Shown here: positions 9,496-41,975 of the stretch, piece after piece
Layout of the letters: each line of letters begins with the position of its first letter
How positions within the stretch are numbered: position 1 is the first letter of the stretch
NCBI GenBank assembly: GCA_045648865.1
Contig: JAZROU010000011.1
Span: 1 to 41,975 of the forward strand
Source of the DNA: Candidatus Enterousia sp.
Lineage (GTDB): Bacteria; Pseudomonadota; Alphaproteobacteria; Rs-D84
Length of the DNA: 41,975 nucleotides
Reading direction: 5' to 3'
The notes under the pieces: model-generated
The model's input: the letters and a program-made list of their open reading frames with translations, nothing else
Database searches by the model: none
What the model was told of the DNA's origin: nothing
Program-made: the position numbers and the translations under genes

Positions 9496-10394
9496 AAACC
9501 CCATGGTGGTTTCTTAGCAAAAATCCCGTATCCATATTACTGGTACCAATTTCATGGCTGTATTACAGCGCCAGTTGTATTGTGCATTTTTTACGCGGTT
9601 TTAAACCACTAAAATCACGTCGAAAAATCATCTGTGTTGGCAACATACTTGCCGGTGGTGTTGGCAAAACCCCGATTGTACGTGCAATTGCGAACATGTA
9701 TGGTGCCCCTGTTGTAATGCGCGGATACAAGGGCAACGCCAAAACCGGCAACATTGGCGACGAAGCCACAATGTTATCACGCACAGGTTTGGCCGTACAC
9801 GTTGGCGACAGAAAAAGCAACATAATTTTACTGAACAAACAAACCGACACCGGTCCAATTATAATGGACGATGGCCTGCAAAATCCGACAATTAAAAAAG
9901 ACATTTCAATAATGGTATTTGACCAAGGTCTGGGATACGGCAATGGCCTGATGTTACCGGCCGGTCCGCTGCGCCAACCAAAGCGTATGGTTAAACGTGC
10001 AGACGCCGTGATTATCATAAAAAATGATAAACCCAAAAAGAAATTCAATCTGCCTGTTGGCGTTCCTGTATTTTATGCAAAAAATCAGACCACATCACCA
10101 TATGACGAAGACGAACGTCTGGTTGCATTTGCGGGCATTGGTTATCCAAAAAAATTCTTTTCATCCCTAAAAAACGTTGTTTCACGTCGCAGTTTTCCAG
10201 ATCATTATCAATATACAACCCAGGATTTAGAAAAACTTATATCCCTGGCTGAAAAGAAGCATGCCAAATTAATCACTACTGAAAAAGATTGGGTACGCCT
10301 GCCGATTGAAATACGCGATCAAATAAAATATGCCAGACTGGACACAGTTATTGAAAACACATTTTGGGACTGGCTAAAGGAGAAAATAAAATGA
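9492..10394 (+). CDS. lpxK: tetraacyldisaccharide 4'-kinase
   Basis: P-loop VGNILAGGVGKTP, DDGLQN block, size 300 aa; ATGA overlap with upstream gene. Confidence 0.9.
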   Translation: MKTPWWFLSKNPVSILLVPISWLYYSASCIVHFLRGFKPLKSRRKIICVGNILAGGVGKTPIVRAIANMYGAPVVMRGYKGNAKTGNIGDEATMLSRTGLAVHVGDRKSNIILLNKQTDTGPIIMDDGLQNPTIKKDISIMVFDQGLGYGNGLMLPAGPLRQPKRMVKRADAVIIIKNDKPKKKFNLPVGVPVFYAKNQTTSPYDEDERLVAFAGIGYPKKFFSSLKNVVSRRSFPDHYQYTTQDLEKLISLAEKKHAKLITTEKDWVRLPIEIRDQIKYARLDTVIENTFWDWLKEKIK

Positions 10395-11329
10395 CGACAC
10401 TGAAAAAAGCAGTCAAAATATCTGGTGTTGGTATTCATTCTGGTGCGCCTGTGGACATCATTGTAAAGCCATCAGAAAATCCTGGGATATATTTTCATCG
10501 TGTTGACATTGCTGGGTCTGAATTAATTCCTGCGACATTCGACAATGTTGGCGAAACCAAGATGCGCAACACAACCATTGGCGACAAAGACGGTGCCCAT
10601 GTCCAAACAATTGAACATTTAATGGCCGGGCTGTTTATATCCGGCATAGACAGTGCAATTATTGAAATCAACGGACCTGAAACACCAATCCTGGACGGCA
10701 GTGCCGCGCAATTTATTTCTGAATTTGACCGGGTGGGCAAAACCCCGGGTAAATTGAAAAAAATTATTGTAAAAAAACCTGTAATTGCCCATTCCCGCGA
10801 AATTTTACGCGACCTACCACTGTTTACCAGATTCAAGATATGGTTATTCAACACAATATCTGGTCGTAAAAATAATGGATTTGTAAAACTATCACCAAAC
10901 GATGGCACACGCCTAGAAATTACTGCGACATTAATATATCCAGAAAAGATAATTGGCAATCAAACATATAAATACACATTTGATTCAACACCTGAATCTG
11001 TTTCTGATTTTACGCGCAACATTGCCCGCGCCCGAACATTTGGAAAATATTCAGAATGGGAATACCTGAAAAAGCGTGGCATGGGTCGTGGTGCAAATGA
11101 AAACAATGTTATCGCATTAAATGACACGGGTGACGGGACACTGAACGAAACAATTTGGCCTGATGAATTTGTACGTCATAAAATTATTGATGCACTTGGC
11201 GACATGTACACATCTGGTGGTTTTATATGTGGATCACTGGAATCGTACAAAGGCAGTCATGCCTTAAACAATTTAATTTTGAAAAAATTGTTCAGCAACC
11301 CTGACAATTATGATATAATCGACGGGTAA
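10391..11329 (+). CDS. lpxC: UDP-3-O-acyl-N-acetylglucosamine deacetylase
   Basis: TLKKAVKISGVGIHSGAPV N-terminus, TIEHLMAGL, ILDGSA, HKIIDALGD blocks; AAGGAG SD, ATGA overlap with lpxK stop; start trimmed from 10364. Confidence 0.9.
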   Translation: MTTLKKAVKISGVGIHSGAPVDIIVKPSENPGIYFHRVDIAGSELIPATFDNVGETKMRNTTIGDKDGAHVQTIEHLMAGLFISGIDSAIIEINGPETPILDGSAAQFISEFDRVGKTPGKLKKIIVKKPVIAHSREILRDLPLFTRFKIWLFNTISGRKNNGFVKLSPNDGTRLEITATLIYPEKIIGNQTYKYTFDSTPESVSDFTRNIARARTFGKYSEWEYLKKRGMGRGANENNVIALNDTGDGTLNETIWPDEFVRHKIIDALGDMYTSGGFICGSLESYKGSHALNNLILKKLFSNPDNYDIIDG

Positions 11330-11348: not shown

Positions 11349-11765
11349 ATGAAGAAATTTTTTGCATTATTTGCTGTTTTATTGTCTGTCACCGCATGCA
11401 GCAACATGATTAAGAACGAAAACAACAGTCAATATTTGGTTCAGCTTGATTCCGAACCAATTGGTTGTACATTCTTATACAAACTTGAATCCGAGGTTTC
11501 CGTCTACGCCGCCGAAGATGCCCGCAGATATCTGGAAAACCGCATCGCAGACCAGGCCCGTCCCGGCAACGCATACTGGATAACCAGTCAACGGACCAAG
11601 CCAAACGAATGGGTAATATTTGGTCCCGAACGTGCATTTGTATTGGTTGCAAACGTATATGATTGCCCACACCAAAATAATATCAGAACCGCCCGTGACG
11701 GTGGTCCTGCGACCGTATCTGTACAATCTGTATCAAATGGTTGTACATACGGAACATGCCAATAA
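11349..11765 (+). CDS. hypothetical lipoprotein, 138 aa
   Basis: lipobox LLSVTAC after MKKFFALFAV; AAGGGGGG SD; terminator downstream. Confidence 0.7.
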   Translation: MKKFFALFAVLLSVTACSNMIKNENNSQYLVQLDSEPIGCTFLYKLESEVSVYAAEDARRYLENRIADQARPGNAYWITSQRTKPNEWVIFGPERAFVLVANVYDCPHQNNIRTARDGGPATVSVQSVSNGCTYGTCQ

Positions 11766-11797
11766 AAAAAGTCCCATGATTCTGGGACTTTTTTTTA
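11764..11797. terminator. bidirectional rho-independent terminator between convergent genes
   Basis: A-run, AGTCCCA tgattc TGGGACT, T-run. Confidence 0.7.
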
Positions 11798-11810: not shown

Positions 11811-12422
11811 TTATTTAAAACATTTTTTTAAATCATCACCTGATTCAACATCATCTATTTTTTTATTACGAATTTCTTGTGCAGCGGCTATTTTCTGTTT
11901 TATTAAAATCAGTTCAGGATGTGATTGTAACTCACTGTTCATTACATTTATAATATCATCGATATCATCACGTGATTTAACAAATCGTGGCATAACAGAT
12001 TGCGCTGCACTGTAAACAGCCATTTGTAAATCACCCTTTAAATCATCAATTACAGACAGATATGTTTTTATATGCATATCTTCATGATTTAATATTGCAT
12101 TAAACGCACATGAATTTGGTTGATGTCTGATATCGATATGCACGACAAAGTCACTGTATCCAACGACACAATTTACATATTTTAATCCGACACAATATCC
12201 CCCATTGACTGGATTTACATCTGCATTTATTTGATAATTATCAACCAGCGTCGCCACAACATTACCATGCCACAAATTCATTTGTTCATGTGGTTGAACG
12301 ACTGTCTTTGACCAATCTGGTGTATTGATATAAACCCCTGGAATTTTTTTAAATTGCAAACAATCTGCCGCCACACATGGCCACCCCATCAAAAACAAAG
12401 TGCCCCAGACTAAAATTCGCAT
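11811..12422 (-). CDS. secreted hypothetical protein, 203 aa, with HExxH motif (HEDMH); possibly DUF922-like Zn-protease fold; helical C-terminal half
   Basis: N-terminal hydrophobic signal MRILVWGTLFLMGWPCVAA; HEDMH encoded at 12086..12072; start ATG shares one nt with the virB4 stop (TAATG). Confidence 0.6.
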   Translation of the reverse strand: MRILVWGTLFLMGWPCVAADCLQFKKIPGVYINTPDWSKTVVQPHEQMNLWHGNVVATLVDNYQINADVNPVNGGYCVGLKYVNCVVGYSDFVVHIDIRHQPNSCAFNAILNHEDMHIKTYLSVIDDLKGDLQMAVYSAAQSVMPRFVKSRDDIDDIINVMNSELQSHPELILIKQKIAAAQEIRNKKIDDVESGDDLKKCFK

Positions 12423-14854
12423 TAATCGGCCGCCCCTTGTTTTTTCAGGTATTCATTAACAAAATTATTACCATACATTTTGTACAATTCTTCGGCCAAC
12501 AGCACCGACGAACGTCCTGATTCAAACAGTCTTAATAAATTCCCCAAACCACCCAGTTCTGTATTTAAAATCACAGATTCACCATTAACCGGCCGCGACA
12601 GCAACACCGCGCGCTTCAAATTTGGATATGCCTTGCCCTGGATGAACGCCATTTCTAATGGGTTTAAATTCCAGTGTGCATAATCTGACGCATCTGCGGC
12701 CGGGTTTCGGAAAAACATAACTGTCTGTGCCTGGCCACGCACAACATCACCCACCCCTAATTTATCCAGCACATTTGCACGTTGGAATGCAACCATATAT
12801 GCCTGGCGATTTTTACGTCCTTCTTGTAATCCTGTAATAAAGTTATCACGGAACATTTTGTTTTCCAGCATTGGTGCAGTTTCGTCAATCATAATCAACG
12901 ATGGGTTTCCACCTGACACAGTAATATTGTTAATTCTGTGTAATATATATGAAATTACCGCCGGGGACAAAACCTGGTCGTTTAAAATATCTGTAAAATC
13001 GAATGTTGTCAGACGCGAATGCAAATCCAGTGTATCTGATACTTCGTTAAACATATCACCATATTGCAATGGGTCGACCCATTTTTTCAGTGCCGCGCGC
13101 ATATTTCCGGACGACGAAAAACAACTTTCCCACAAATTTTTCAACATCCTGTCATTATCGTTCAAGTAATCAAAATTCACCGACACAGCGCGCGCAATTT
13201 CATCTGCGGACGCGGCATCACTTTGCCCTGAAATAATTGCGAACCACCGCCGCAAGAACGCACGATTCACTGCGGAATCCGGCATTTTCAGCGGATTTAA
13301 ATGGGTCAAGAAAGTCTGTTCCATCGGATCAGATTTTTTTTCTTTTCCATGCATTGTGATATACTTTCCACCGACCGCCAATGTAAAGATTTCCGCCCCT
13401 TTGTTTCTGTCGAAAAAGAACGCCTTTAACTTTGGGTGACGCAAACTTTGCGCAATCAAAAATGAAAACAGTGTTGTCTTACCACCACCTGTCGGTCCGA
13501 TTGTCAACGTATGTCCAACAGCCGCCGGTTTATCCGACACATGAAATTGGAATTGATACGGCGTCCCCTGCGCGGTTGGGAACACCACCAGTGGCCCTGG
13601 CCCCCAGTCTGAATTTTCAACACCGCGTGGCTGACTTGACATTGGAATTGAAATTGCCGCCGCCCGTGATAACAATTTAAAACTGCGTGGAAAAACATTA
13701 AATCCTGGAATTTGTGCGAACCACGAAACCTTGGACGCAAATGTTTCAACAACAGGCGAAATACCAAATTGCGCTGCAATCTTTCTAAATTCATCAACAT
13801 ATTTTTGCAAATCTTCAATTGTTGCACCAAACAAAACAAACAATGGATAGTAATCAACCAAGCTTTGGTTACCGCTAACATTTTCATCCATTGCGACCTG
13901 GGCCTGTGAAATTTGTGATTCTGTTGACTGTGCCTTTTCTTCTTCTGCGGTTGAACGTTTTCTTCTTATTGTATTTTCGACATCTGCGGCCTTCATTATA
14001 TGAAAACCATTCATAGTAATCATTTCTGTCTGAATTGTCGACACAGTATCAAAGAATTCTTCATCCAGATAATCCGGCGAAATTTTAAATGACACACATG
14101 CTGCAAACGATTGATTTCCACCGCTGATATACCGCACAACGCCATCATTCAAGAATTCCACATCATCAACCGTTGTTAATTTTGCGATATTATTATCTGC
14201 GCGTTTTGGCATTGGTTTTGAAATTGGCGACAAAATCCGTCCAAAGAAACGTGCCATATTATCTGGACTGTCATTTTTCAACACCACCGGTTTATATGGG
14301 GCCAGTATTGATTCAATATAATTACCATATTGATTCAGTTTTGCCCGCGCATCCCCCCCTGCAACGGACAACACAATATAATAATTATTCAAGAAAATCT
14401 TTAATCCCTGTCCGCGCCATTTATTATATATACGCTGCAACGTGGGCTGATCGAATTCATAATTTGTATTTTCATCTGCCGCGTCACGTATCATATAGAA
14501 CCGCAGAACAACACCTGAATCACGAATTTGATTAAACAATTGCGCCCGCAAATCCAAGAATTTTTCTTTTGCCGCATCATCCTGCATACTGGTCTGCAAT
14601 CCTGCAACCCTGTACACACGAATTAAACTGCCATCGGTCAGCTGCATAGAATTATCATTATATACCGTACTGAACGGCAAATAGTTTGAATATTTTGCAT
14701 AACCAAATTTAGGAAAAATCCTACGATTTAAAACCGGCACATACATTACCAGTATTAAAAACACACACAAAGACGCCAACACCAAAACAGTTAAAGTAAT
14801 TGGGAAAACACCACCTGCAAAATATTCAAAAAATTCATTTAACTGATGTATCAT
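12422..14854 (-). CDS. virB4: type IV secretion system ATPase VirB4 (CagE/TrbE family)
   Basis: 810 aa; Walker A GPTGGGKTT, IMIDETAPML Walker B region, N-terminal region ...LPFSTVYNDNSMQLTDGSLIRVYRVAGL typical of VirB4. Confidence 0.9.
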   Translation of the reverse strand: MIHQLNEFFEYFAGGVFPITLTVLVLASLCVFLILVMYVPVLNRRIFPKFGYAKYSNYLPFSTVYNDNSMQLTDGSLIRVYRVAGLQTSMQDDAAKEKFLDLRAQLFNQIRDSGVVLRFYMIRDAADENTNYEFDQPTLQRIYNKWRGQGLKIFLNNYYIVLSVAGGDARAKLNQYGNYIESILAPYKPVVLKNDSPDNMARFFGRILSPISKPMPKRADNNIAKLTTVDDVEFLNDGVVRYISGGNQSFAACVSFKISPDYLDEEFFDTVSTIQTEMITMNGFHIMKAADVENTIRRKRSTAEEEKAQSTESQISQAQVAMDENVSGNQSLVDYYPLFVLFGATIEDLQKYVDEFRKIAAQFGISPVVETFASKVSWFAQIPGFNVFPRSFKLLSRAAAISIPMSSQPRGVENSDWGPGPLVVFPTAQGTPYQFQFHVSDKPAAVGHTLTIGPTGGGKTTLFSFLIAQSLRHPKLKAFFFDRNKGAEIFTLAVGGKYITMHGKEKKSDPMEQTFLTHLNPLKMPDSAVNRAFLRRWFAIISGQSDAASADEIARAVSVNFDYLNDNDRMLKNLWESCFSSSGNMRAALKKWVDPLQYGDMFNEVSDTLDLHSRLTTFDFTDILNDQVLSPAVISYILHRINNITVSGGNPSLIMIDETAPMLENKMFRDNFITGLQEGRKNRQAYMVAFQRANVLDKLGVGDVVRGQAQTVMFFRNPAADASDYAHWNLNPLEMAFIQGKAYPNLKRAVLLSRPVNGESVILNTELGGLGNLLRLFESGRSSVLLAEELYKMYGNNFVNEYLKKQGAAD

Positions 14855-15147
14855 GCTGCCAATTTTCCTGGTATTTTACGTTTTAATAGTTGTAATTTTG
14901 CGGTAACAATCTGTCCCAATTGCGGGTCACGCTTTGAAAATATTGCGATTATCATATGAACAATTATAACCGACACTAAAAAATATAGCGGTTGCACTGG
15001 CCTAGTGCCCTTGGTAACAACCACAGAAATAACAAATACAACAATCCAAATCAAGAATTGAACAAGAAAATTTAACACGGCCAACGAATAAGGCACATAA
15101 AAAATATGCGCCGGGTTTGCCAATGCTTTTAATACTTGCTGTTTCAT
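14851..15147 (-). CDS. virB3: type IV secretion system protein VirB3
   Basis: 98 aa, two hydrophobic helices, LANPAHIFYVPYS and SKRDPQLGQIV blocks; ATGA overlap with virB4; GGAAAGAG SD. Confidence 0.8.
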   Translation of the reverse strand: MKQQVLKALANPAHIFYVPYSLAVLNFLVQFLIWIVVFVISVVVTKGTRPVQPLYFLVSVIIVHMIIAIFSKRDPQLGQIVTAKLQLLKRKIPGKLAA

Positions 15148-15168
15148 TCTCTTTCCGTCCTGTTGATA

Positions 15169-15197
15169 ATTATAACAATTTCAACAATTTTCAACAA
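15169..15197 (-). promoter_or_regulatory. candidate virB3 promoter TTGTTG-17-TGtTATAAT
   Basis: minus-strand TTGTTG (15197..15192), 17-nt spacer, extended -10 TGtTATAAT (-10 hexamer 15174..15169), 21 nt with SD before ATG 15147. Confidence 0.45.
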
Positions 15198-15372
15198 GCA
15201 TAAAAAGCCCAGAACTTATTTTTGTTAAAACTGTTAAAAACCTATCCCCTTTTCAACTGTTAATTATTTTGTTAAATTTTCAACAATTTCGTAAAAAGTC
15301 GGGAAAACCTGGCAAATAATTGTTGAAAACCTGTTAATAAAAAACTAAAAACTGTTTTCAACACTTTCAACC
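15178..15372. repeat. array of TTTTCAACA-type 9-mers (six direct, one inverted) interleaved with CTGTTAA/TGTTAA words
   Basis: TTTCAACA 15179..15186; TTTTCAACA 15188..15196, 15277..15285, 15355..15363; TTTTCAACT 15250..15258; TTTCAACC 15365..15372; inverted TGTTGAAAA 15321..15329; CTGTTAA at 15231, 15257, 15331. Confidence 0.8.
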
Positions 15373-15407
15373 ACCCCTACTACAACTACTAATAAATAAT
15401 ATATTAT

Positions 15408-15435
15408 TTGATTTTTAAAAAAATATGTTTATAAT
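15408..15435 (+). promoter_or_regulatory. rpmJ promoter TTGATT-16-TATAAT
   Basis: TTGATT 15408..15413, 16-nt spacer, TATAAT 15430..15435; AAAAAGGA SD then ATG 15459. Confidence 0.55.
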
Positions 15436-15458
15436 CGCCTTGTAAAAAGGATTAAGAC

Positions 15459-15593
15459 ATGAAATTTTTAAGTTCATTAAAGGCTTGGAAGAAACGCGGT
15501 AATGTAAAACAGATCCGTCGTGGCAAACAGGTTATCTTGATCGACCCTAACAACCCAAAATTCAAAGCAAAACAGGGTTTCAAGAAAAAATAA
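15459..15593 (+). CDS. rpmJ: 50S ribosomal protein L36, Cys-free long form (44 aa); missed by the ORF track
   Basis: MKFLSSLKAWKKRGNVKQIRRGKQVILIDPNNPKFKAKQGFKKK matches the alphaproteobacterial MK..SLK....R......RR.G...I.....P.FKARQG pattern. Confidence 0.85.
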   Translation: MKFLSSLKAWKKRGNVKQIRRGKQVILIDPNNPKFKAKQGFKKK

Positions 15594-15598
15594 AAATT

Positions 15599-15621
15599 CC
15601 GCCGATTGGCGGTTTTTTTTT
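15599..15621. terminator. bidirectional terminator shared by rpmJ and sspB
   Basis: CCGCC gatt GGCGG followed by a 9-nt T-run; the sspB stop lies in the T-run. Confidence 0.65.
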
Positions 15622-26297: not shown

Positions 26298-27118
26298 TTA
26301 TATTCGTTTTTTGGTGTATCGAATTTTAGTACCATAACCCGTGAAATTTCGGCTGGATTTGCAACTGCGACATCTGTTTCATCAATCATTTCACCAACGA
26401 TAAGTCCTGCTGGCAAAACCCCGGATATATTACTGGAAACCAGTTTTATTCCACGCACAGGTTGAAATTCAGGATTGCTAAAAAATCCCATTGTTGGATA
26501 CTTTGACCCATTTCCTGTCATAAAACCATAAACATCCGACCCAACAACACGCACAGCAATATTTGTATCTGCATCTGTCAGGGCCCGCACACGTGAAAAA
26601 TTATTTGCGCTGTCAATTATAATTCCGGCCAGACGCATATCAGTTGTTACCACAACCATACCTGTTTCGACACCATCACGTCCACCCCGGTTTATTATAT
26701 ACGTATTATGCCCCAGTGCCCGATTATCATGAATAACATCTGCGATAACTGCGTCACGTGGCTGGGTACTTACCAGTCCTAATTCATTGGTTAATTTTTG
26801 ATTTTCTTTTATTGCGATATCGCACAAATCCTTGTTTATCATTGCGGCGTCCAAACGCGCACGCAGTTCTTTATTTTCTTCGCGCAGTGATGAAACCTGT
26901 GTAATTGCACTGAACGTATTTCCGATGACCCGAAACGGCCACGTAATTACATCCCCCACCACCTGGGCCACAGGCACAACCACATGTCCCAACGCATTCA
27001 TAATTGCATAGTCTGGTTTTGCAACCATGATGTATATAAACAGAACTGGCAAGACCGCCGCCGTTGCGACCGCGCGAATCAAAGGGTATATTTTGGAAGA
27101 TATCTTATTTTGTTTCAT
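26294..27118 (-). CDS. mreC: rod shape-determining protein MreC
   Basis: N-terminal anchor, coiled-coil LREENKELRARLD, beta-rich C-terminal domain with GGRDGVETGMVVV and GLIVGEM blocks. Confidence 0.85.
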   Translation of the reverse strand: MKQNKISSKIYPLIRAVATAAVLPVLFIYIMVAKPDYAIMNALGHVVVPVAQVVGDVITWPFRVIGNTFSAITQVSSLREENKELRARLDAAMINKDLCDIAIKENQKLTNELGLVSTQPRDAVIADVIHDNRALGHNTYIINRGGRDGVETGMVVVTTDMRLAGIIIDSANNFSRVRALTDADTNIAVRVVGSDVYGFMTGNGSKYPTMGFFSNPEFQPVRGIKLVSSNISGVLPAGLIVGEMIDETDVAVANPAEISRVMVLKFDTPKNEYK

Positions 27119-27126
27119 CGGGCATT

Positions 27127-27155
27127 ACTTTAACCCCAAAAAGTCAGATATTCAA
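27127..27155 (-). promoter_or_regulatory. candidate promoter TTGAAT-17-TAAAGT, 8 nt before the mreC ATG
   Basis: minus-strand TTGAAT (27155..27150), 17-nt spacer, TAAAGT (27132..27127), aatgcccg, ATG 27118. Confidence 0.45.
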
Positions 27156-27258
27156 TAAAAACTTGATTTTTGAAATAAATCTGGCAAAATAGGCACAGTC
27201 AAAGTGGCAGGCATTGCCACCAGACACTAAAAACTATCTAGAAATAAAAGGATATAAA

Positions 27259-27462
27259 ATGCCAAAATTAAAGACCAAGTCGTACTTGAAAAAACGTGCG
27301 TCTATGACCGCGACCGGTAAAATCCGTGTTGCACGCAACTCTCATAAAAAACTGTTGCGCAAGAAATCTGCCCGCGCAAACAAGGCAGGTGCAAAACCAC
27401 AGTATTTGAATGAAAACATGGTGGGTCAGGCAAAAATCCTGGCGCCATACGGTTTGAAATAA
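27259..27462 (+). CDS. rpmI: 50S ribosomal protein L35
   Basis: MPKLKTKSYLKKRASMTATGKIRVARNSHKKLL...; AAAGGA SD; start trimmed from 27214. Confidence 0.9.
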   Translation: MPKLKTKSYLKKRASMTATGKIRVARNSHKKLLRKKSARANKAGAKPQYLNENMVGQAKILAPYGLK

Positions 27463-27476
27463 GGGGGTAACAGGTC

Positions 27477-27845
27477 ATGGCAAGAGTAAAACGCGGTACA
27501 ACCGTTAAACAAAAGCACAATAAAATCTTAGCACGTGCCAAGGGTTACCTGGGCCGTCATCATTCAACATATCGCGCCGCCCGTGAAAAAACGGAAAAGG
27601 CGGGTCAGTATGCATATCGCGATCGTCGCGTTAAAAAACGTGAATTTCGTGGTTTGTGGATTGTCCGTATCAATGCAGCGGTACGCGCAAATGGTATGAC
27701 TTACAGCCAGTTTATGAATGGCCTGAAAAAGGCAGGCATCGCCCTGGACCGCAAGGTTTTGGCCGAAATGGCATATGCAGGTGATGCAAACTTCGTCAAA
27801 TTGGTTGACACAGCGAAACGATTTAACAACGCCGAAAGTAAATAA
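27477..27845 (+). CDS. rplT: 50S ribosomal protein L20
   Basis: [24 protein letters not shown]...[25 protein letters not shown]. Confidence 0.95.
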
Positions 27846-40970: not shown

Positions 40971-40998
40971 AAAACACCCCAAGATGGGGTGTTTTTTT
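40971..40998. terminator. bidirectional terminator
   Basis: aaaa CACCCC aagat GGGGTG ttttttt; serves tRNA-Cys and the convergent Cys-rich gene. Confidence 0.7.
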
Positions 40999-41975
40999 AA
41001 GAATTGCTGTTTTTTATGCAAACACCGTTTTGCATTGTAAAATCGGGATCGCATACGCATGTCCCGTACGAGTTGCGTTCGCTGTTATCCGGACATTTTA
41101 GTACACACGATGTTCCCCATGGTATATACCCGGTCTTACATCTACATCTGGTGTTAACACATTTTTTGTCGTTTCCAATTTCTCCGGCCGGGCATTCTGT
41201 CGACTGATACTCTGAATTATCTGGGCACAGTAACGACTGATAGAACATTTCGGATATGTTGTTTATACATGTTTCTTCGTCTGTTATGGGGCAACTGGTT
41301 GTATCGCCATTAAACACCGCGTATGCGCACGTCAGTGCAACATTACGACACGCCCCGCGCATTACATTATAAATGCCACTTACACTGGCGGATGATGACC
41401 ATGCATTTACCTGGGTCACCTGTTGGTTATAGCATTGTGCGATATCCACCATACAACTGGACGCATATTTTGAAATGGCGCGTTGCTGTGCGGCACGAAT
41501 ATTAACCATTGCGCGCTGGACATAGTTCACAACAACATCGTTATATGGAATGTAATTACCTGACGCATCATAGGATACGCGCTGACACTTGTCCAAAACG
41601 GCGCGACACAGCCCTTCGTCGGTCACATTTTGTTTTGTGCCAATTTTTTGTAATAAATATTTTGCAACGCATGACCCATCGCCACCGACGCTTGGGTCAT
41701 CAGACGATGAAACTTTGCTACAACTTTCTGAATTTATTATTTGGTTGTCGTACGCGTTTTCCAAGAACGTTTTATCAATATTCGCATTGTTGTAATTTTT
41801 CATAAAATCAGTGATATCTGAAACCCTTTGTCCTAATACCACATTACCATTTTCGTCGATATATTTTTTTGTTGGGTCGACACATTTCAGGTAATCATCC
41901 CCACAGACCATATCGTCCTTCATACATGTTTCCAGTGCCCCGATACAAGCCTTGGCGTCATATTGGTTTTTGTTT
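40997..41975 (-). CDS. C-terminal part of a large Cys-rich secreted/surface protein with EGF-like C-terminal modules; 5' end lies beyond the window
   Basis: the frame stays open upstream of the track's Met (41923) to the window edge (…NKNQYDAKACIGALETC-MKDD…); 22 Cys in the last 308 aa; two CPDNSE-initiated Cys modules at the C-terminus. Confidence 0.7.
   Translation of the reverse strand, partial: NKNQYDAKACIGALETCMKDDMVCGDDYLKCVDPTKKYIDENGNVVLGQRVSDITDFMKNYNNANIDKTFLENAYDNQIINSESCSKVSSSDDPSVGGDGSCVAKYLLQKIGTKQNVTDEGLCRAVLDKCQRVSYDASGNYIPYNDVVVNYVQRAMVNIRAAQQRAISKYASSCMVDIAQCYNQQVTQVNAWSSSASVSGIYNVMRGACRNVALTCAYAVFNGDTTSCPITDEETCINNISEMFYQSLLCPDNSEYQSTECPAGEIGNDKKCVNTRCRCKTGYIPWGTSCVLKCPDNSERNSYGTCVCDPDFTMQNGVCIKNSNS

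What the first reader, a model, noticed from the sequence alone, without database searches (positions are those of the whole stretch)
11811..15147. Stand-alone virB3-virB4 module translationally coupled to a secreted HExxH protein in the VirB5 slot
Seen in sequence:
- virB3 and virB4 overlap by ATGA (14851..14854).
- The virB4 stop shares one nt with the ATG of a 203-aa ORF (TAATG at 12422), and a bidirectional terminator follows at 11764..11797. This looks like a closed three-gene unit.
- No virB1, B2, B5-B11 or virD4 lies anywhere in the 42 kb.
- The third protein has a signal-like N-terminus, a Cys-containing beta-rich half carrying HEDMH (12086..12072), and a helical C-terminal half.
- VirB4 also carries an extra N-terminal hydrophobic segment (FAGGVFPITLTVLVLASLCVFLILVMYVPVL).

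Established knowledge: in canonical virB operons the gene after virB4 is virB5, a secreted helical pilus-tip protein. Scattered rvh-type loci usually continue with virB6 copies.

Inference: a zincin-motif protein stoichiometrically coupled to the T4SS ATPase would be an undescribed accessory, for example a periplasmic processing or wall-remodelling factor, or a divergent VirB5 with a catalytic head.
Basis: partly seen in the sequence, partly recalled or inferred. Interest (0 to 1): 0.7.

Follow-up and report, generated by a model that had tools for sequence, protein, structure and literature searches.

The report
VirB3-VirB4 operon with periplasmic HExxH protein
A gut bacterium with a tiny genome keeps two type IV secretion genes fused into one operon with a secreted, probably zinc-binding protein of an unnamed family whose other members sit next to a cell-wall-cutting enzyme, which points to a new kind of wall-remodelling helper for a secretion machine.

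Summary
virB3 (14851-15147), virB4 (12422-14854) and a 203-aa ORF (11811-12422) lie on the minus strand. They are joined by ATGA and TAATG overlaps and end at a bidirectional hairpin terminator.

The organism is a Candidatus Enterousia (order Rs-D84), a gut alphaproteobacterium with a genome of about 0.9 Mb. The trio is adjacent in 80 of 80 related species genomes, although the flanking genes are reshuffled.

The 203-aa protein has a signal peptide. H113, E114, H117, D190 and three cysteines are invariant, and a fourth cysteine (C105) is nearly so. HExxH is present in all 279 full-length family members checked.

The protein is not VirB5. It has no Pfam or NCBIfam match, and two confident AlphaFold models match nothing in the PDB. 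Relatives show only sub-threshold similarity to DUF922.

Two of the more distant relatives whose context could be read are translationally coupled (TTAATG) to the lytic transglycosylase gene mltA.

Best reading: a periplasmic metallohydrolase recruited as a wall or envelope remodelling partner of the T4SS. This is inferred, not shown.

New findings: rpmJ lies divergently upstream across a conserved control region holding 5-11 TGTTGAAA-like boxes. An intact virD4 sits on a separate island. No virB6 or virB8-11 were found.

The parts
15599..15612 (.). Bidirectional terminator hairpin (CCGCCAATCGGCGG with T runs on both sides). It ends rpmJ (+) and sspB (-) and isolates the virB3 control region from sspB-recF.
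   Evidence: Terminator scan finds it on both strands. It is conserved in the 9 of 10 close loci whose sequence covers it.
15459..15593 (+). rpmJ (ribosomal protein bL36, 44 aa, cysteine-free type), transcribed divergently from virB3.
   Evidence: Pfam PF00444 at E 1.3e-5, 25.7 bits against a cut-off of 26.1. A homologue 86-98% identical lies within 900 nt upstream of virB3 in 76 of 76 loci.
15148..15458 (.). Gene-free divergent control region between rpmJ and virB3. It carries 9 copies of TGTT[GA]A[AT]A, in both orientations, between 15161 and 15363.
   Evidence: Pattern counts: 13 exact TGTTGAAA in the window against 5.3 expected, 5 of them here; 42 degenerate matches against 17 expected, 9 of them here. 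Related loci hold a median of 8 copies (range 5-11) per 350 nt, against a background of 0.29, in 76 of 76 loci. All but one of the clusters of 5 or more found in all held sequence, which includes about 3 Mb of clade loci, lie upstream of virB3. There is no VirB2-like ORF here.
15169..15197 (-). Putative virB3 promoter: -10 TATAAT at 15169-15174 and a -35-like TTGTTG at 15192-15197. It is overlapped by three direct TGTT(G/A)-type repeats spaced 10 and 9 nt apart.
   Evidence: Read from the sequence. The scanner gives an overlapping site at 15166-15194. The 40-nt block GCTTTTTATGCTTGTTGAAAATTGTTGAAATTGTTATAATT is conserved in at least 95% of 77 sequences at nearly every position. Promoter function is inferred.
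14851..15147 (-). virB3, 98 aa, with two hydrophobic segments.
   Evidence: PF05101 at E 1.1e-5, above the cut-off. It is 60-85% identical across 78 loci.
14851..14854 (-). ATGA overlap of the virB3 stop and the virB4 start.
   Evidence: The same -4 overlap occurs in 25 of 78 related loci; the rest have gaps of 10 nt or less (approximate start calls).
12422..14854 (-). virB4 ATPase, 810 aa. Features: N-terminal hydrophobic segment (residues 12-42, 14729-14821), Walker A (13475-13498), Walker B (12881-12898).
   Evidence: PF03135 at 1.6e-13; TIGR00929 at 1.9e-109. Coordinates. Median identity across 80 genomes is 82%, higher than LpxC at 70%. The closest plasmid relatives are 32% identical and sit in complete T4SS loci.
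12420..12424 (-). TAATG junction: the virB4 stop TAA (12422-12424) shares one nucleotide with the ORF203 ATG (12420-12422). An AAGGGG Shine-Dalgarno-like element lies 10 nt upstream, inside virB4.
   Evidence: In 80 related loci the junction is usually -1 to +12 nt.
11811..12422 (-). ORF203 ('X'), a secreted HExxH protein. Features: signal peptide (residues 1-19, 12366-12422), HGNV (12258-12269), C21 (12360-12362), C77 (12192-12194), C105 (12108-12110), HEDMH (12072-12086), D190 (11853-11855), C201 (11820-11822).
   Evidence: 297 close homologues. 618 clusters at 50% identity. Invariant columns. HExxH in 279 of 279 relatives and 80 of 80 loci. AlphaFold pLDDT 92. No Pfam or NCBIfam hit.
11764..11797 (.). 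Bidirectional intrinsic terminator (A8-GTCCCA-loop-TGGGAC-T7) between ORF203 (-) and the convergent lipoprotein gene 11349-11765 (+).
   Evidence: Folds at z -4.6 and -4.9 on the two strands.

Best explanation
The locus is a self-contained chromosomal operon, virB3-virB4-X, of a Candidatus Enterousia (Rs-D84 Alphaproteobacteria).

X (ORF203) is exported by a Sec signal peptide. It very probably carries two disulfides and a metal site built from H113, H117 and, as third ligand, probably D190, with E114 as the catalytic base. It belongs to a large family of periplasmic HExxH proteins that has no model in Pfam or NCBIfam. The family is present in many bacteria and has no recognisable solved fold.

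In two low-GC alphaproteobacterial lineages the family gene is translationally coupled to mltA (lytic murein transglycosylase A). In the Enterousia lineage and its neighbours a copy has instead become the fixed third cistron behind virB4.

The most likely mechanism is that X is a periplasmic zinc hydrolase working on the cell wall (peptide stems or cross-links) or on envelope proteins. It would be made together with the VirB3/VirB4 inner-membrane platform, so that the wall is opened or the machine matured where the T4SS is assembled. That is a VirB1-like role carried out with different chemistry.

The operon is driven from a strongly conserved promoter. The promoter lies inside an array of 5-11 TGTTGAAA-like boxes shared with the divergent rpmJ gene, which implies control by an unidentified DNA-binding protein.

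Shown:
- The operon anatomy, its conservation and the family-wide motif.
- The mltA coupling of two of the relatives whose context was read.
- The absence of VirB5 features.

Inferred:
- Metal binding and catalysis.
- The substrate.
- The link to T4SS assembly.
For: Anatomy.

Synteny:
- The trio is adjacent in 80 of 80 genomes while the flanks vary. LpxC lies 2-10 kb away on either side or is absent, and SspB/RecF are adjacent in only 1 of 80.
- Linkage also holds in lineages whose VirB4 is only 58-65% identical and whose X is 27-34% identical.
- Some lineages carry two tandem X paralogues behind virB4, and both keep HExxH.

Family:
- 618 representative clusters.
- In alignment A2 (16-49% identity) C21, G53, C77, H113, E114, H117, D190 and C201 are invariant.
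- HExxH is present in 279 of 279 full-length relatives.
- Signal peptides are visible in nearly all N-termini.

mltA link:
- P0172 and P0179 start at the mltA stop with a TTAATG junction, in a SecB-Tim44-MltA-X context.
- They are the only non-T4SS relatives near the top of the profile ranking whose context could be read on a long contig.
- Another relative lies beside genes for a SPOR-domain protein and ZapA.

Zincin hint: sub-threshold DUF922 and eCIS_core hits centre on the HExxH helix. DUF922 is itself a predicted zincin (PMC3650047).

Functional T4SS context:
- VirB4 is very conserved, with intact Walker motifs.
- An intact VirD4, 74-90% identical, is found in 248 gut or rumen contigs.

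Control region.
Against: - Neither confident model (pLDDT 92 and 93.9) matches any zincin, or anything else, in the PDB. The best Foldseek E-values are 0.12-0.16 with TM below 0.2.
- The predicted architecture is unlike a compact protease: a 20-residue-per-strand beta-hairpin plus long helices.
- I could not read model coordinates, so the H113/H117/D190 site is not verified.
- The mltA link rests on two lineages only. Other relatives have unrelated or uninformative neighbours.
- No virB6, B8, B9, B10 or B11 was found in about 3 Mb of clade sequence around the two islands. Whether a complete T4SS exists is therefore open.
- In genomes this small, operon fusion can arise from compaction alone.
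Confidence: 0.45

Rival explanations
1. X is a periplasmic processing protease for the T4SS itself. It would mature a pilin or VirB2-like subunit, another channel subunit or a secreted substrate, rather than acting on peptidoglycan.
For: HExxH with the catalytic Glu is invariant. X is co-translated with VirB4. X evolves faster than VirB4 (median 57% against 82% identity), as expected for a protein that tracks a variable partner.
Against: Family members occur without any T4SS nearby, next to mltA, and in free-living Methylobacteriaceae. No VirB2 or pilin gene is in the operon or its leader. No protease fold is recognised.
Confidence: 0.18
2. X is a general envelope housekeeping protein. Its place behind virB4 would be a by-product of genome compaction, with no specific role in type IV secretion.
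For: Genomes of the clade are 0.75-1.0 Mb (PMC12306168). The family is widespread and found in varied contexts. The window holds only one family member, and no second copy was seen in about 3 Mb of clade loci, so the virB-linked copy may be the cell's only one.
Against: The trio moves as a block through many rearrangements, in 80 of 80 genomes. Linkage persists in lineages with 58% VirB4 identity and very different GC content (25-43%). Tandem duplication of X happened inside the operon.
Confidence: 0.2
3. X is a non-catalytic structural or adaptor protein of the machine, a functional replacement of VirB5 or another periplasmic stalk component, and its HExxH serves a structural metal site.
For: X occupies the slot that holds VirB5 (PF07996) in the closest complete T4SS loci. 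The predicted shape is elongated, with long helices and a long beta-hairpin. No enzyme fold is recognised.
Against: There is no sequence or fold similarity to VirB5/TraC. The Glu of HExxH is invariant, which a purely structural site does not need. Homologues occur outside T4SS loci.
Confidence: 0.1
4. The TGTTGAAA-box array upstream of virB3 is the chromosomal replication origin (DnaA-box-like TTATCAACA / TTTTCAACA) rather than a transcriptional control region.
For: There are 5-11 boxes, one mismatch from TTATCCACA, in an AT-rich intergenic region that is unique per locus. recF is 1 kb away in the window.
Against: GC skew does not change sign across the array. It is positive on the virB strand on both sides in 42 of 47 loci, and the window profile shows no turn at 15.3 kb. 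Genes on the far side are transcribed toward the array. recF is adjacent in only 1 of 80 genomes.
Confidence: 0.07

Closest known systems
VirB1-type specialised lytic transglycosylases of T4SS (VirB1, P19, TrbN; from established knowledge)
   Same: A periplasmic, Sec-exported accessory encoded inside the T4SS operon. Its presumed job is to open the cell wall locally for machine assembly.
   Different: X has no SLT or lysozyme-like domain. Its signature is HExxH plus Asp plus four Cys. It sits after virB4, not at the head of the operon. The wall link is indirect, through relatives coupled to mltA.
Peptidase-type wall hydrolases dedicated to secretion machines (T6SS TagX L,D-endopeptidase; Gram-positive T4SS PrgK, TcpG and CwlT with peptidase domains; from my own knowledge, not tested here)
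   Same: They set the precedent that a peptidase, rather than a glycosidase, can be the dedicated wall-opening factor of a secretion system.
   Different: They belong to different families (LAS/VanY-like, NlpC/P60, CHAP). None is an HExxH protein, and none is known in a Gram-negative VirB-type T4SS.
VirB5 / TraC / TrbJ (PF07996)
   Same: The gene position immediately after virB4, export to the periplasm, and a helical C-terminal half.
   Different: X has no HMM match and no Foldseek match. X has a beta-hairpin half, HExxH and four Cys, and its homologues occur outside T4SS loci. The closest complete T4SS (Erythrobacter plasmid) has a true PF07996 protein in that slot.
DUF922 (PF06037, COG5661 'predicted secreted Zn-dependent protease')
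   Same: A secreted bacterial protein of about 200 aa with HExxH and uncharacterised function. Ten of 66 relatives of X give weak hits over the HExxH helix and the C-terminal part.
   Different: All hits are below the gathering score (14 bits or less in the hits inspected, against 27; best E 0.0048). The window protein gives none. A profile-profile test could not be run.
Rickettsiales vir homologue (rvh) T4SS organisation (from established knowledge)
   Same: A reduced-genome alphaproteobacterium with T4SS genes split into islands. virB3-virB4 head one island and virD4 lies elsewhere.
   Different: In rvh, virB3-virB4 is followed by virB6 paralogues, and virD4 follows virB8-11. Here virB4 is followed by X and a terminator, and virD4 stands alone next to genes for RsmE/RluB and LpoB.

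Membership tests
VirB4 (T4SS ATPase) | CagE/TrbE/VirB domain and Walker A/B motifs | tested here: met
   PF03135 at 51.6 bits against a cut-off of 21. TIGR00929 at E 1.9e-109, 367 bits, below its 643-bit cut-off. GPTGGGKT and LIMIDE are present.
VirB3 | VirB3 HMM match; small two-TM protein directly upstream of virB4 | tested here: met
   PF05101 at 26.1 bits against a cut-off of 23.9. ATGA overlap with virB4.
VirB5 / TraC / TrbJ | Match to PF07996 | tested here: not met
   No Pfam family at E up to 1 for ORF203. PF07996 is not among the 25 families most often hit by the 66 relatives.
VirB5 / TraC / TrbJ | Helical-bundle fold like TraC or the R388 VirB5 | tested here: not met
   Foldseek of two models (pLDDT 92 and 93.9) against the PDB gives best E 0.12-0.16 and TM below 0.2, with no T4SS protein among the 50 best matches listed.
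VirB5 / TraC / TrbJ | Family confined to T4SS or conjugation loci | tested here: not met
   Relatives occur after mltA, beside SPOR/ZapA genes, and on a Microvirga plasmid 45 kb from its T4SS.
Zincin metallopeptidases | Invariant HExxH on a helix | tested here: met
   H113, E114 and H117 are invariant. Present in 279 of 279 relatives and 80 of 80 loci. The motif lies in helix 105-127 of the model.
Zincin metallopeptidases | Third metal ligand (Glu, His or Asp) downstream | tested here: inconclusive
   D190, in the N-x-x-I-D motif of helix 169-192, is invariant across A2.
Zincin metallopeptidases | Zincin fold (mixed sheet, active-site helix, lower helical subdomain) | tested here: not met
   No zincin appears among the listed Foldseek matches with E up to 10 in the PDB for either model. 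The PDB sequence profile search finds only apolipoprotein-like noise.
Zincin metallopeptidases | Metal-dependent hydrolytic activity | not testable with these tools
   Needs biochemistry.
DUF922 (PF06037) | HMM score above the gathering threshold (27 bits) | tested here: not met
   Zero hits for the window protein. Ten of 66 relatives hit at E 0.0048-0.07, 14 bits or less in the hits inspected.
T4SS-dedicated cell-wall hydrolase (VirB1-like role) | Encoded within the T4SS operon and exported to the periplasm | tested here: met
   Third cistron of virB3-virB4-X. N-terminal signal peptide ending ...CVA/ADC, read from the sequence.
T4SS-dedicated cell-wall hydrolase (VirB1-like role) | Recognised peptidoglycan-hydrolase domain (SLT, lysozyme, NlpC/P60, M23, M15) | tested here: not met
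   No such Pfam or NCBIfam domain. The only link to wall enzymes is genomic coupling of relatives to mltA.
rvh-type scattered T4SS | virB3-virB4 followed by virB6 paralogues; virB8-11 and virD4 together | tested here: not met
   A terminator follows X. virD4 stands alone. No B6 or B8-B11 detected near either island.

The most novel reading that the evidence does not exclude
X founds a new structural class of periplasmic zinc hydrolases that act together with lytic transglycosylases (MltA) on peptidoglycan. In the Enterousia lineage this enzyme, and not a VirB1-type glycosidase, would be the dedicated wall-opening factor of a pared-down T4SS. Its expression would be set by a dense operator array shared with a ribosomal protein gene.
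Probability: 0.25. Interest if true: 0.75.

Novelty: new variant of a known kind. Interest (0 to 1): 0.6.

Why it matters
If X is a wall or envelope hydrolase tied to VirB4, three things follow.
- It adds a new enzyme class to the accessory set of Gram-negative type IV secretion systems.
- It gives a first functional handle on a family of at least 618 sequence clusters that no Pfam or NCBIfam model covers and whose predicted fold has no solved relative.
- It shows that Candidatus Enterousia, abundant uncultured gut bacteria with genomes under 1 Mb and no respiration, keep VirB4 under stronger constraint than LpxC. Some T4SS-derived machine is therefore probably central to how they live, possibly on other cells.

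The conserved box array offers an entry point to its regulation.

Tried and rejected
1. VirB5 identity. Rejected: no HMM or fold match, and homologues occur outside T4SS loci.
2. DUF922 membership. Only sub-threshold hits. I could not build a DUF922 profile for hhalign because no seed sequence was available.
3. Fold assignment. Foldseek against the PDB (two models) and BFVD, plus a PDB sequence-profile search, gave nothing.
4. Domain fusions as functional clues. The longer relatives are only a low-complexity tail (P0125) or an internal duplication whose second HExxH is lost (P0266).
5. A VirB2 gene in the 450-nt space upstream of virB3. None; the only real gene there is rpmJ.
6. The rest of the T4SS.
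   - tblastn and phmmer with Erythrobacter and Microvirga plasmid VirB2-B11 and VirD4 proteins were run against the window and about 3 Mb of clade loci.
   - They found only VirB4, VirD4 and an unrelated PilQ-like ATPase.
   - Whole genomes could not be fetched.
7. VirD4 homologues from the protein database were short pieces from higher-GC organisms (split genes), not from Enterousia. The metagenome scan then recovered intact Enterousia virD4.
8. The oriC reading of the box array. Rejected on GC skew.
9. A metagenome locus search with the divergent alignment A3 failed because no stretch was conserved enough. The frequency of mltA coupling across the family therefore remains unmeasured.
10. Plasmid tblastn with X-family proteins gave only two uninformative contexts.

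Full report
**1. What is in the sequence**

virB3 ends GCA GCA TGA, and the virB4 ATG starts inside it, giving ATGA at 14851-14854. virB4 ends GAT TAA, and its last A is the first base of the ATG of X, giving TAATG at 12420-12424.

- virB3 passes the Pfam VirB3 cut-off.
- virB4 passes the Pfam CagE/TrbE/VirB cut-off and matches TIGR00929 at 1.9e-109, though below every curated NCBIfam cut-off. It is therefore a divergent VirB4.
- Its Walker A and B motifs are intact.
- Downstream, A8-GTCCCA-loop-TGGGAC-T7 (11764-11797) folds well on both strands, z -4.6 and -4.9. It separates X from a convergent lipoprotein gene that follows lpxC.

**2.

The space between virB3 and sspB is not empty.

- A 44-aa ORF on the plus strand (15459-15593) is ribosomal protein bL36. 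Its Pfam L36 hit has E 1.3e-5, just under the cut-off.
- A bidirectional terminator at 15599-15612 closes both rpmJ and sspB.
- The 310 nt between the rpmJ and virB3 start codons hold nine copies of TGTT[GA]A[AT]A in both orientations.
- No VirB2-like ORF is present.

In related genomes rpmJ is divergent from virB3 in 76 of 76 loci. The 350 nt upstream of virB3 carry a median of 8 boxes (range 5-11), against a background of 0.29 per 350 nt. Only one other cluster was found.

A 40-nt block that contains a TATAAT and three direct repeats is conserved in at least 95% of 77 sequences at nearly every position. I read this as a promoter embedded in an operator array. This is an inference.

The boxes are one mismatch from a DnaA box, so I tested an origin reading. 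GC skew does not change sign across the array, so I reject it.

**3. Where the window comes from**

Close homologues of X come from MAGs named Candidatus Enterousia or 'Alphaproteobacteria bacterium', from human, ruminant and bird guts. Enterousia belongs to the uncultured order Rs-D84. Its genomes are 0.75-1.0 Mb and lack the TCA cycle and respiratory chains (PMC12306168).

The rest of the window is ordinary chromosome:
- LPS and capsule glycosyltransferases and outer-membrane proteins;
- lpxK, lpxC, sspB, recF, ychF, dnaG and topA;
- rodA, mrdA, mreDCB, pheST and accBC;
- uvrD, dnaQ and a HlyD/TolC pair.

No other T4SS gene is present. A profile of the X family finds only ORF203 in the window.

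**4. Is the trio a unit?**

A scan of one genome per species found 171 loci encoding a relative of X. In all 80 that were kept, virB3-virB4-X are adjacent and in the same order. The flanks are not conserved. lpxC lies 2-10 kb away on either side or is absent, and sspB-recF are adjacent in only one other genome.

By approximate start calls, the virB4-to-X distance is mostly -1 to +12 nt and the virB3-to-virB4 distance is -4 to +10 nt. Tight coupling is thus conserved, although the exact 1-nt overlap is not.

Median identity to the window proteins is 82% for VirB4, 68% for VirB3, 57% for X and 70% for LpxC. VirB4 is therefore under very strong constraint.

The linkage reaches further:
- A relative 27% identical to X follows a virB3-virB4 pair whose VirB4 is 58% identical, in a 25% GC genome. 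That trio again ends at a convergent gene.
- A relative 34% identical to X follows a VirB4 that is 65% identical.
- In two short contigs a second, divergent paralogue lies next to virB4 or to an ordinary X. L085 shows virB4 followed by the paralogue, and L088 shows a virB4 end, the paralogue, then X. Together these read as virB4-X2-X1, and both paralogues keep HExxH.

**5. What X is**

X has no Pfam or NCBIfam match at E up to 1.

Its N-terminus is a signal peptide ending CVA/ADC. This was read from the sequence, and homologues show the same A-x-A then D-C pattern. Among 29 close homologues 39 columns are invariant, including H113, E114, H117, four Cys and an HGNV motif.

A profile search of 1.84 billion representative proteins finds 618 clusters at E up to 1e-3. 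These are typically 200-250 aa with signal peptides and four Cys. In a 66-sequence alignment spanning 16-49% identity, the invariant residues are C21, G53, C77, H113, E114, H117, D190 and C201, and C105 is nearly so. HExxH is present in all 279 full-length members examined and in all 80 loci.

AlphaFold gives confident models for X (pLDDT 92, pTM 0.79) and for a distant member, P0179 (pLDDT 93.9, pTM 0.85). Both have the same topology:
- two short strands;
- a long beta-hairpin of about 20 residues per strand;
- a long helix that starts with HExxH;
- three more helices, the third of which carries D190.

Foldseek finds nothing in the PDB for either model (best E 0.12-0.16, TM below 0.2) and nothing in BFVD. 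A PDB sequence-profile search gives only apolipoprotein-like noise on the helical half.

Ten of 66 relatives give sub-threshold hits to DUF922, and three to eCIS_core, both HExxH families. The hits are centred on the HExxH helix. DUF922 was predicted to be a zincin on weak profile evidence and is uncharacterised (PMC3650047).

X is therefore a member of an un-modelled periplasmic HExxH family, possibly a remote relative of DUF922. A zincin fold is not demonstrated.

**6. Context of the wider family**

Two relatives that rank among the closest non-T4SS matches to the Enterousia profile start at the stop codon of mltA. These are P0172 and P0179, with a TTAATG junction, the same 1-nt overlap as in the window. 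They lie in a SecB-Tim44-MltA-X arrangement in two low-GC alphaproteobacterial lineages whose MltA proteins are 53% identical.

Other members form tandem pairs, one of them beside genes for a SPOR-domain protein and ZapA. One lies on a Microvirga megaplasmid, 45 kb from that plasmid's T4SS and not inside it.

This is the only functional clue from context. It points to peptidoglycan work, but it rests on few cases.

**7. The T4SS background**

The closest plasmid VirB4 proteins (32% identity, against about 25% for ordinary ones) sit in complete loci with a MobA/MobL relaxase. The gene order is VirB2-B3-B4-B5-B6-B8-B9-B10-B11-D4. The protein after VirB4 in the Erythrobacter plasmid is a true PF07996 VirB5. 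Those VirB4 proteins also begin with a hydrophobic segment.

X thus occupies the VirB5 slot of an ancestral canonical operon, but it is not derived from VirB5.

In one Enterousia-like contig a virD4 fragment lies 3.5 kb upstream of virB3. A metagenome scan with it found 248 relatives at 74-90% identity. These include intact 728-aa genes on contigs up to 935 kb. They are flanked by rsmE/rluB and by genes for a TPR lipoprotein and LpoB, with no other vir gene within 10 kb.

phmmer with plasmid VirB6 and VirB8-B11 found nothing in about 3 Mb of clade loci. The system is therefore split into islands, as in Rickettsiales, but with different content. Whether it is complete is unknown.

**8. Interpretation**

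The evidence that stands:
- a conserved, translationally coupled, separately terminated operon;
- a secreted third product with an invariant HExxH, an invariant Asp and four Cys;
- no relation to VirB5;
- relatives coupled to a lytic transglycosylase gene.

From this I infer that X is a periplasmic metallohydrolase recruited to work with the T4SS inner-membrane platform, most likely on the cell wall.

The rivals cannot be excluded with the tools at hand. They are a protease for T4SS subunits, a housekeeping protein caught by genome compaction, and a non-catalytic structural subunit. The lack of any recognisable enzyme fold and the elongated predicted shape are real cautions.

**9. Novelty**

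I found no paper linking VirB3/VirB4 with an HExxH protein, and none describing a T4SS in Enterousia. The association, the family and the control array appear undescribed.

Dedicated wall hydrolases of secretion systems are a known kind. I therefore rate this a new variant of a known kind, with a modest chance of being a new enzyme class.

Noticed in passing
window 15148-15458 (boxes at 15161-15363); upstream of virB3 in L001-L080: A dense array of 5-11 TGTT[GA]A[AT]A boxes in both orientations, unique to the rpmJ-virB3 intergenic region in 76 of 76 loci. It includes a nearly invariant 40-nt promoter block. The boxes resemble DnaA boxes with one mismatch, but GC skew argues against an origin. 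The binding protein is unknown.
   Followed up: partly
It is always divergent from virB3 in this clade (86-98% identity).
   Followed up: yes
L113 9551-13773; L075 2-358 (-): An intact virD4 (728 aa) forms its own island. It is divergent from rsmE-rluB-TPR and is followed by genes for a TPR lipoprotein and LpoB (PF13036, 3e-29). In L075 the island lies only 3.5 kb from virB3. No virB8-11 lies nearby.
   Followed up: partly
L071 16863-20470 (about 20 other loci alike): A cluster resembling the thin pilus of plasmid R64: PilO (PF06864), a secreted coiled-coil protein and a 545-aa T2SSE ATPase. It lies just downstream of lpxC and the lipoprotein gene. In the window that position is taken by the convergent X-virB4-virB3 unit.
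   Followed up: partly
L085 and L088; L092 532-1892; L095 1716-3106; protein P0266: The X family often occurs as tandem paralogues. L085 (virB4 then X2) and L088 (virB4 end, X2, then X1) together indicate virB4-X2-X1, and L092 and L095 carry X-X pairs. One fused two-domain protein has lost the second HExxH.
   Followed up: partly
L098 7250-9000; L100 732-2143: In higher-GC (46-51%) relatives virD4 is split into two ORFs (123+416 aa and 142+328 aa). It is preceded by several genes without Pfam matches. These could be pseudogenes, assembly errors or genuinely split genes.
   Followed up: no
window 12422-14854 compared with 10364-11329, across L001-L080: VirB4 (median 82% identity) is more conserved across 80 species-level genomes than the essential LpxC (70%).
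   Followed up: yes
window 11349-11765 (+): A 138-aa lipoprotein with a Cys-rich C-terminus and no family assignment. In 35 of the 42 loci where lpxC was found it lies immediately downstream of lpxC (39-88% identity).
   Followed up: no
window 40997-41923 (-): A 308-aa cysteine-rich protein, probably secreted, with no Pfam match, next to the TolC/HlyD pair.
   Followed up: no
window about 27100-27500: The cumulative GC skew reaches its minimum here, and gene orientation switches from mreC (-) to rplT (+). This is a more plausible place than 15.3 kb for a replication origin or another strand-bias boundary.
   Followed up: no
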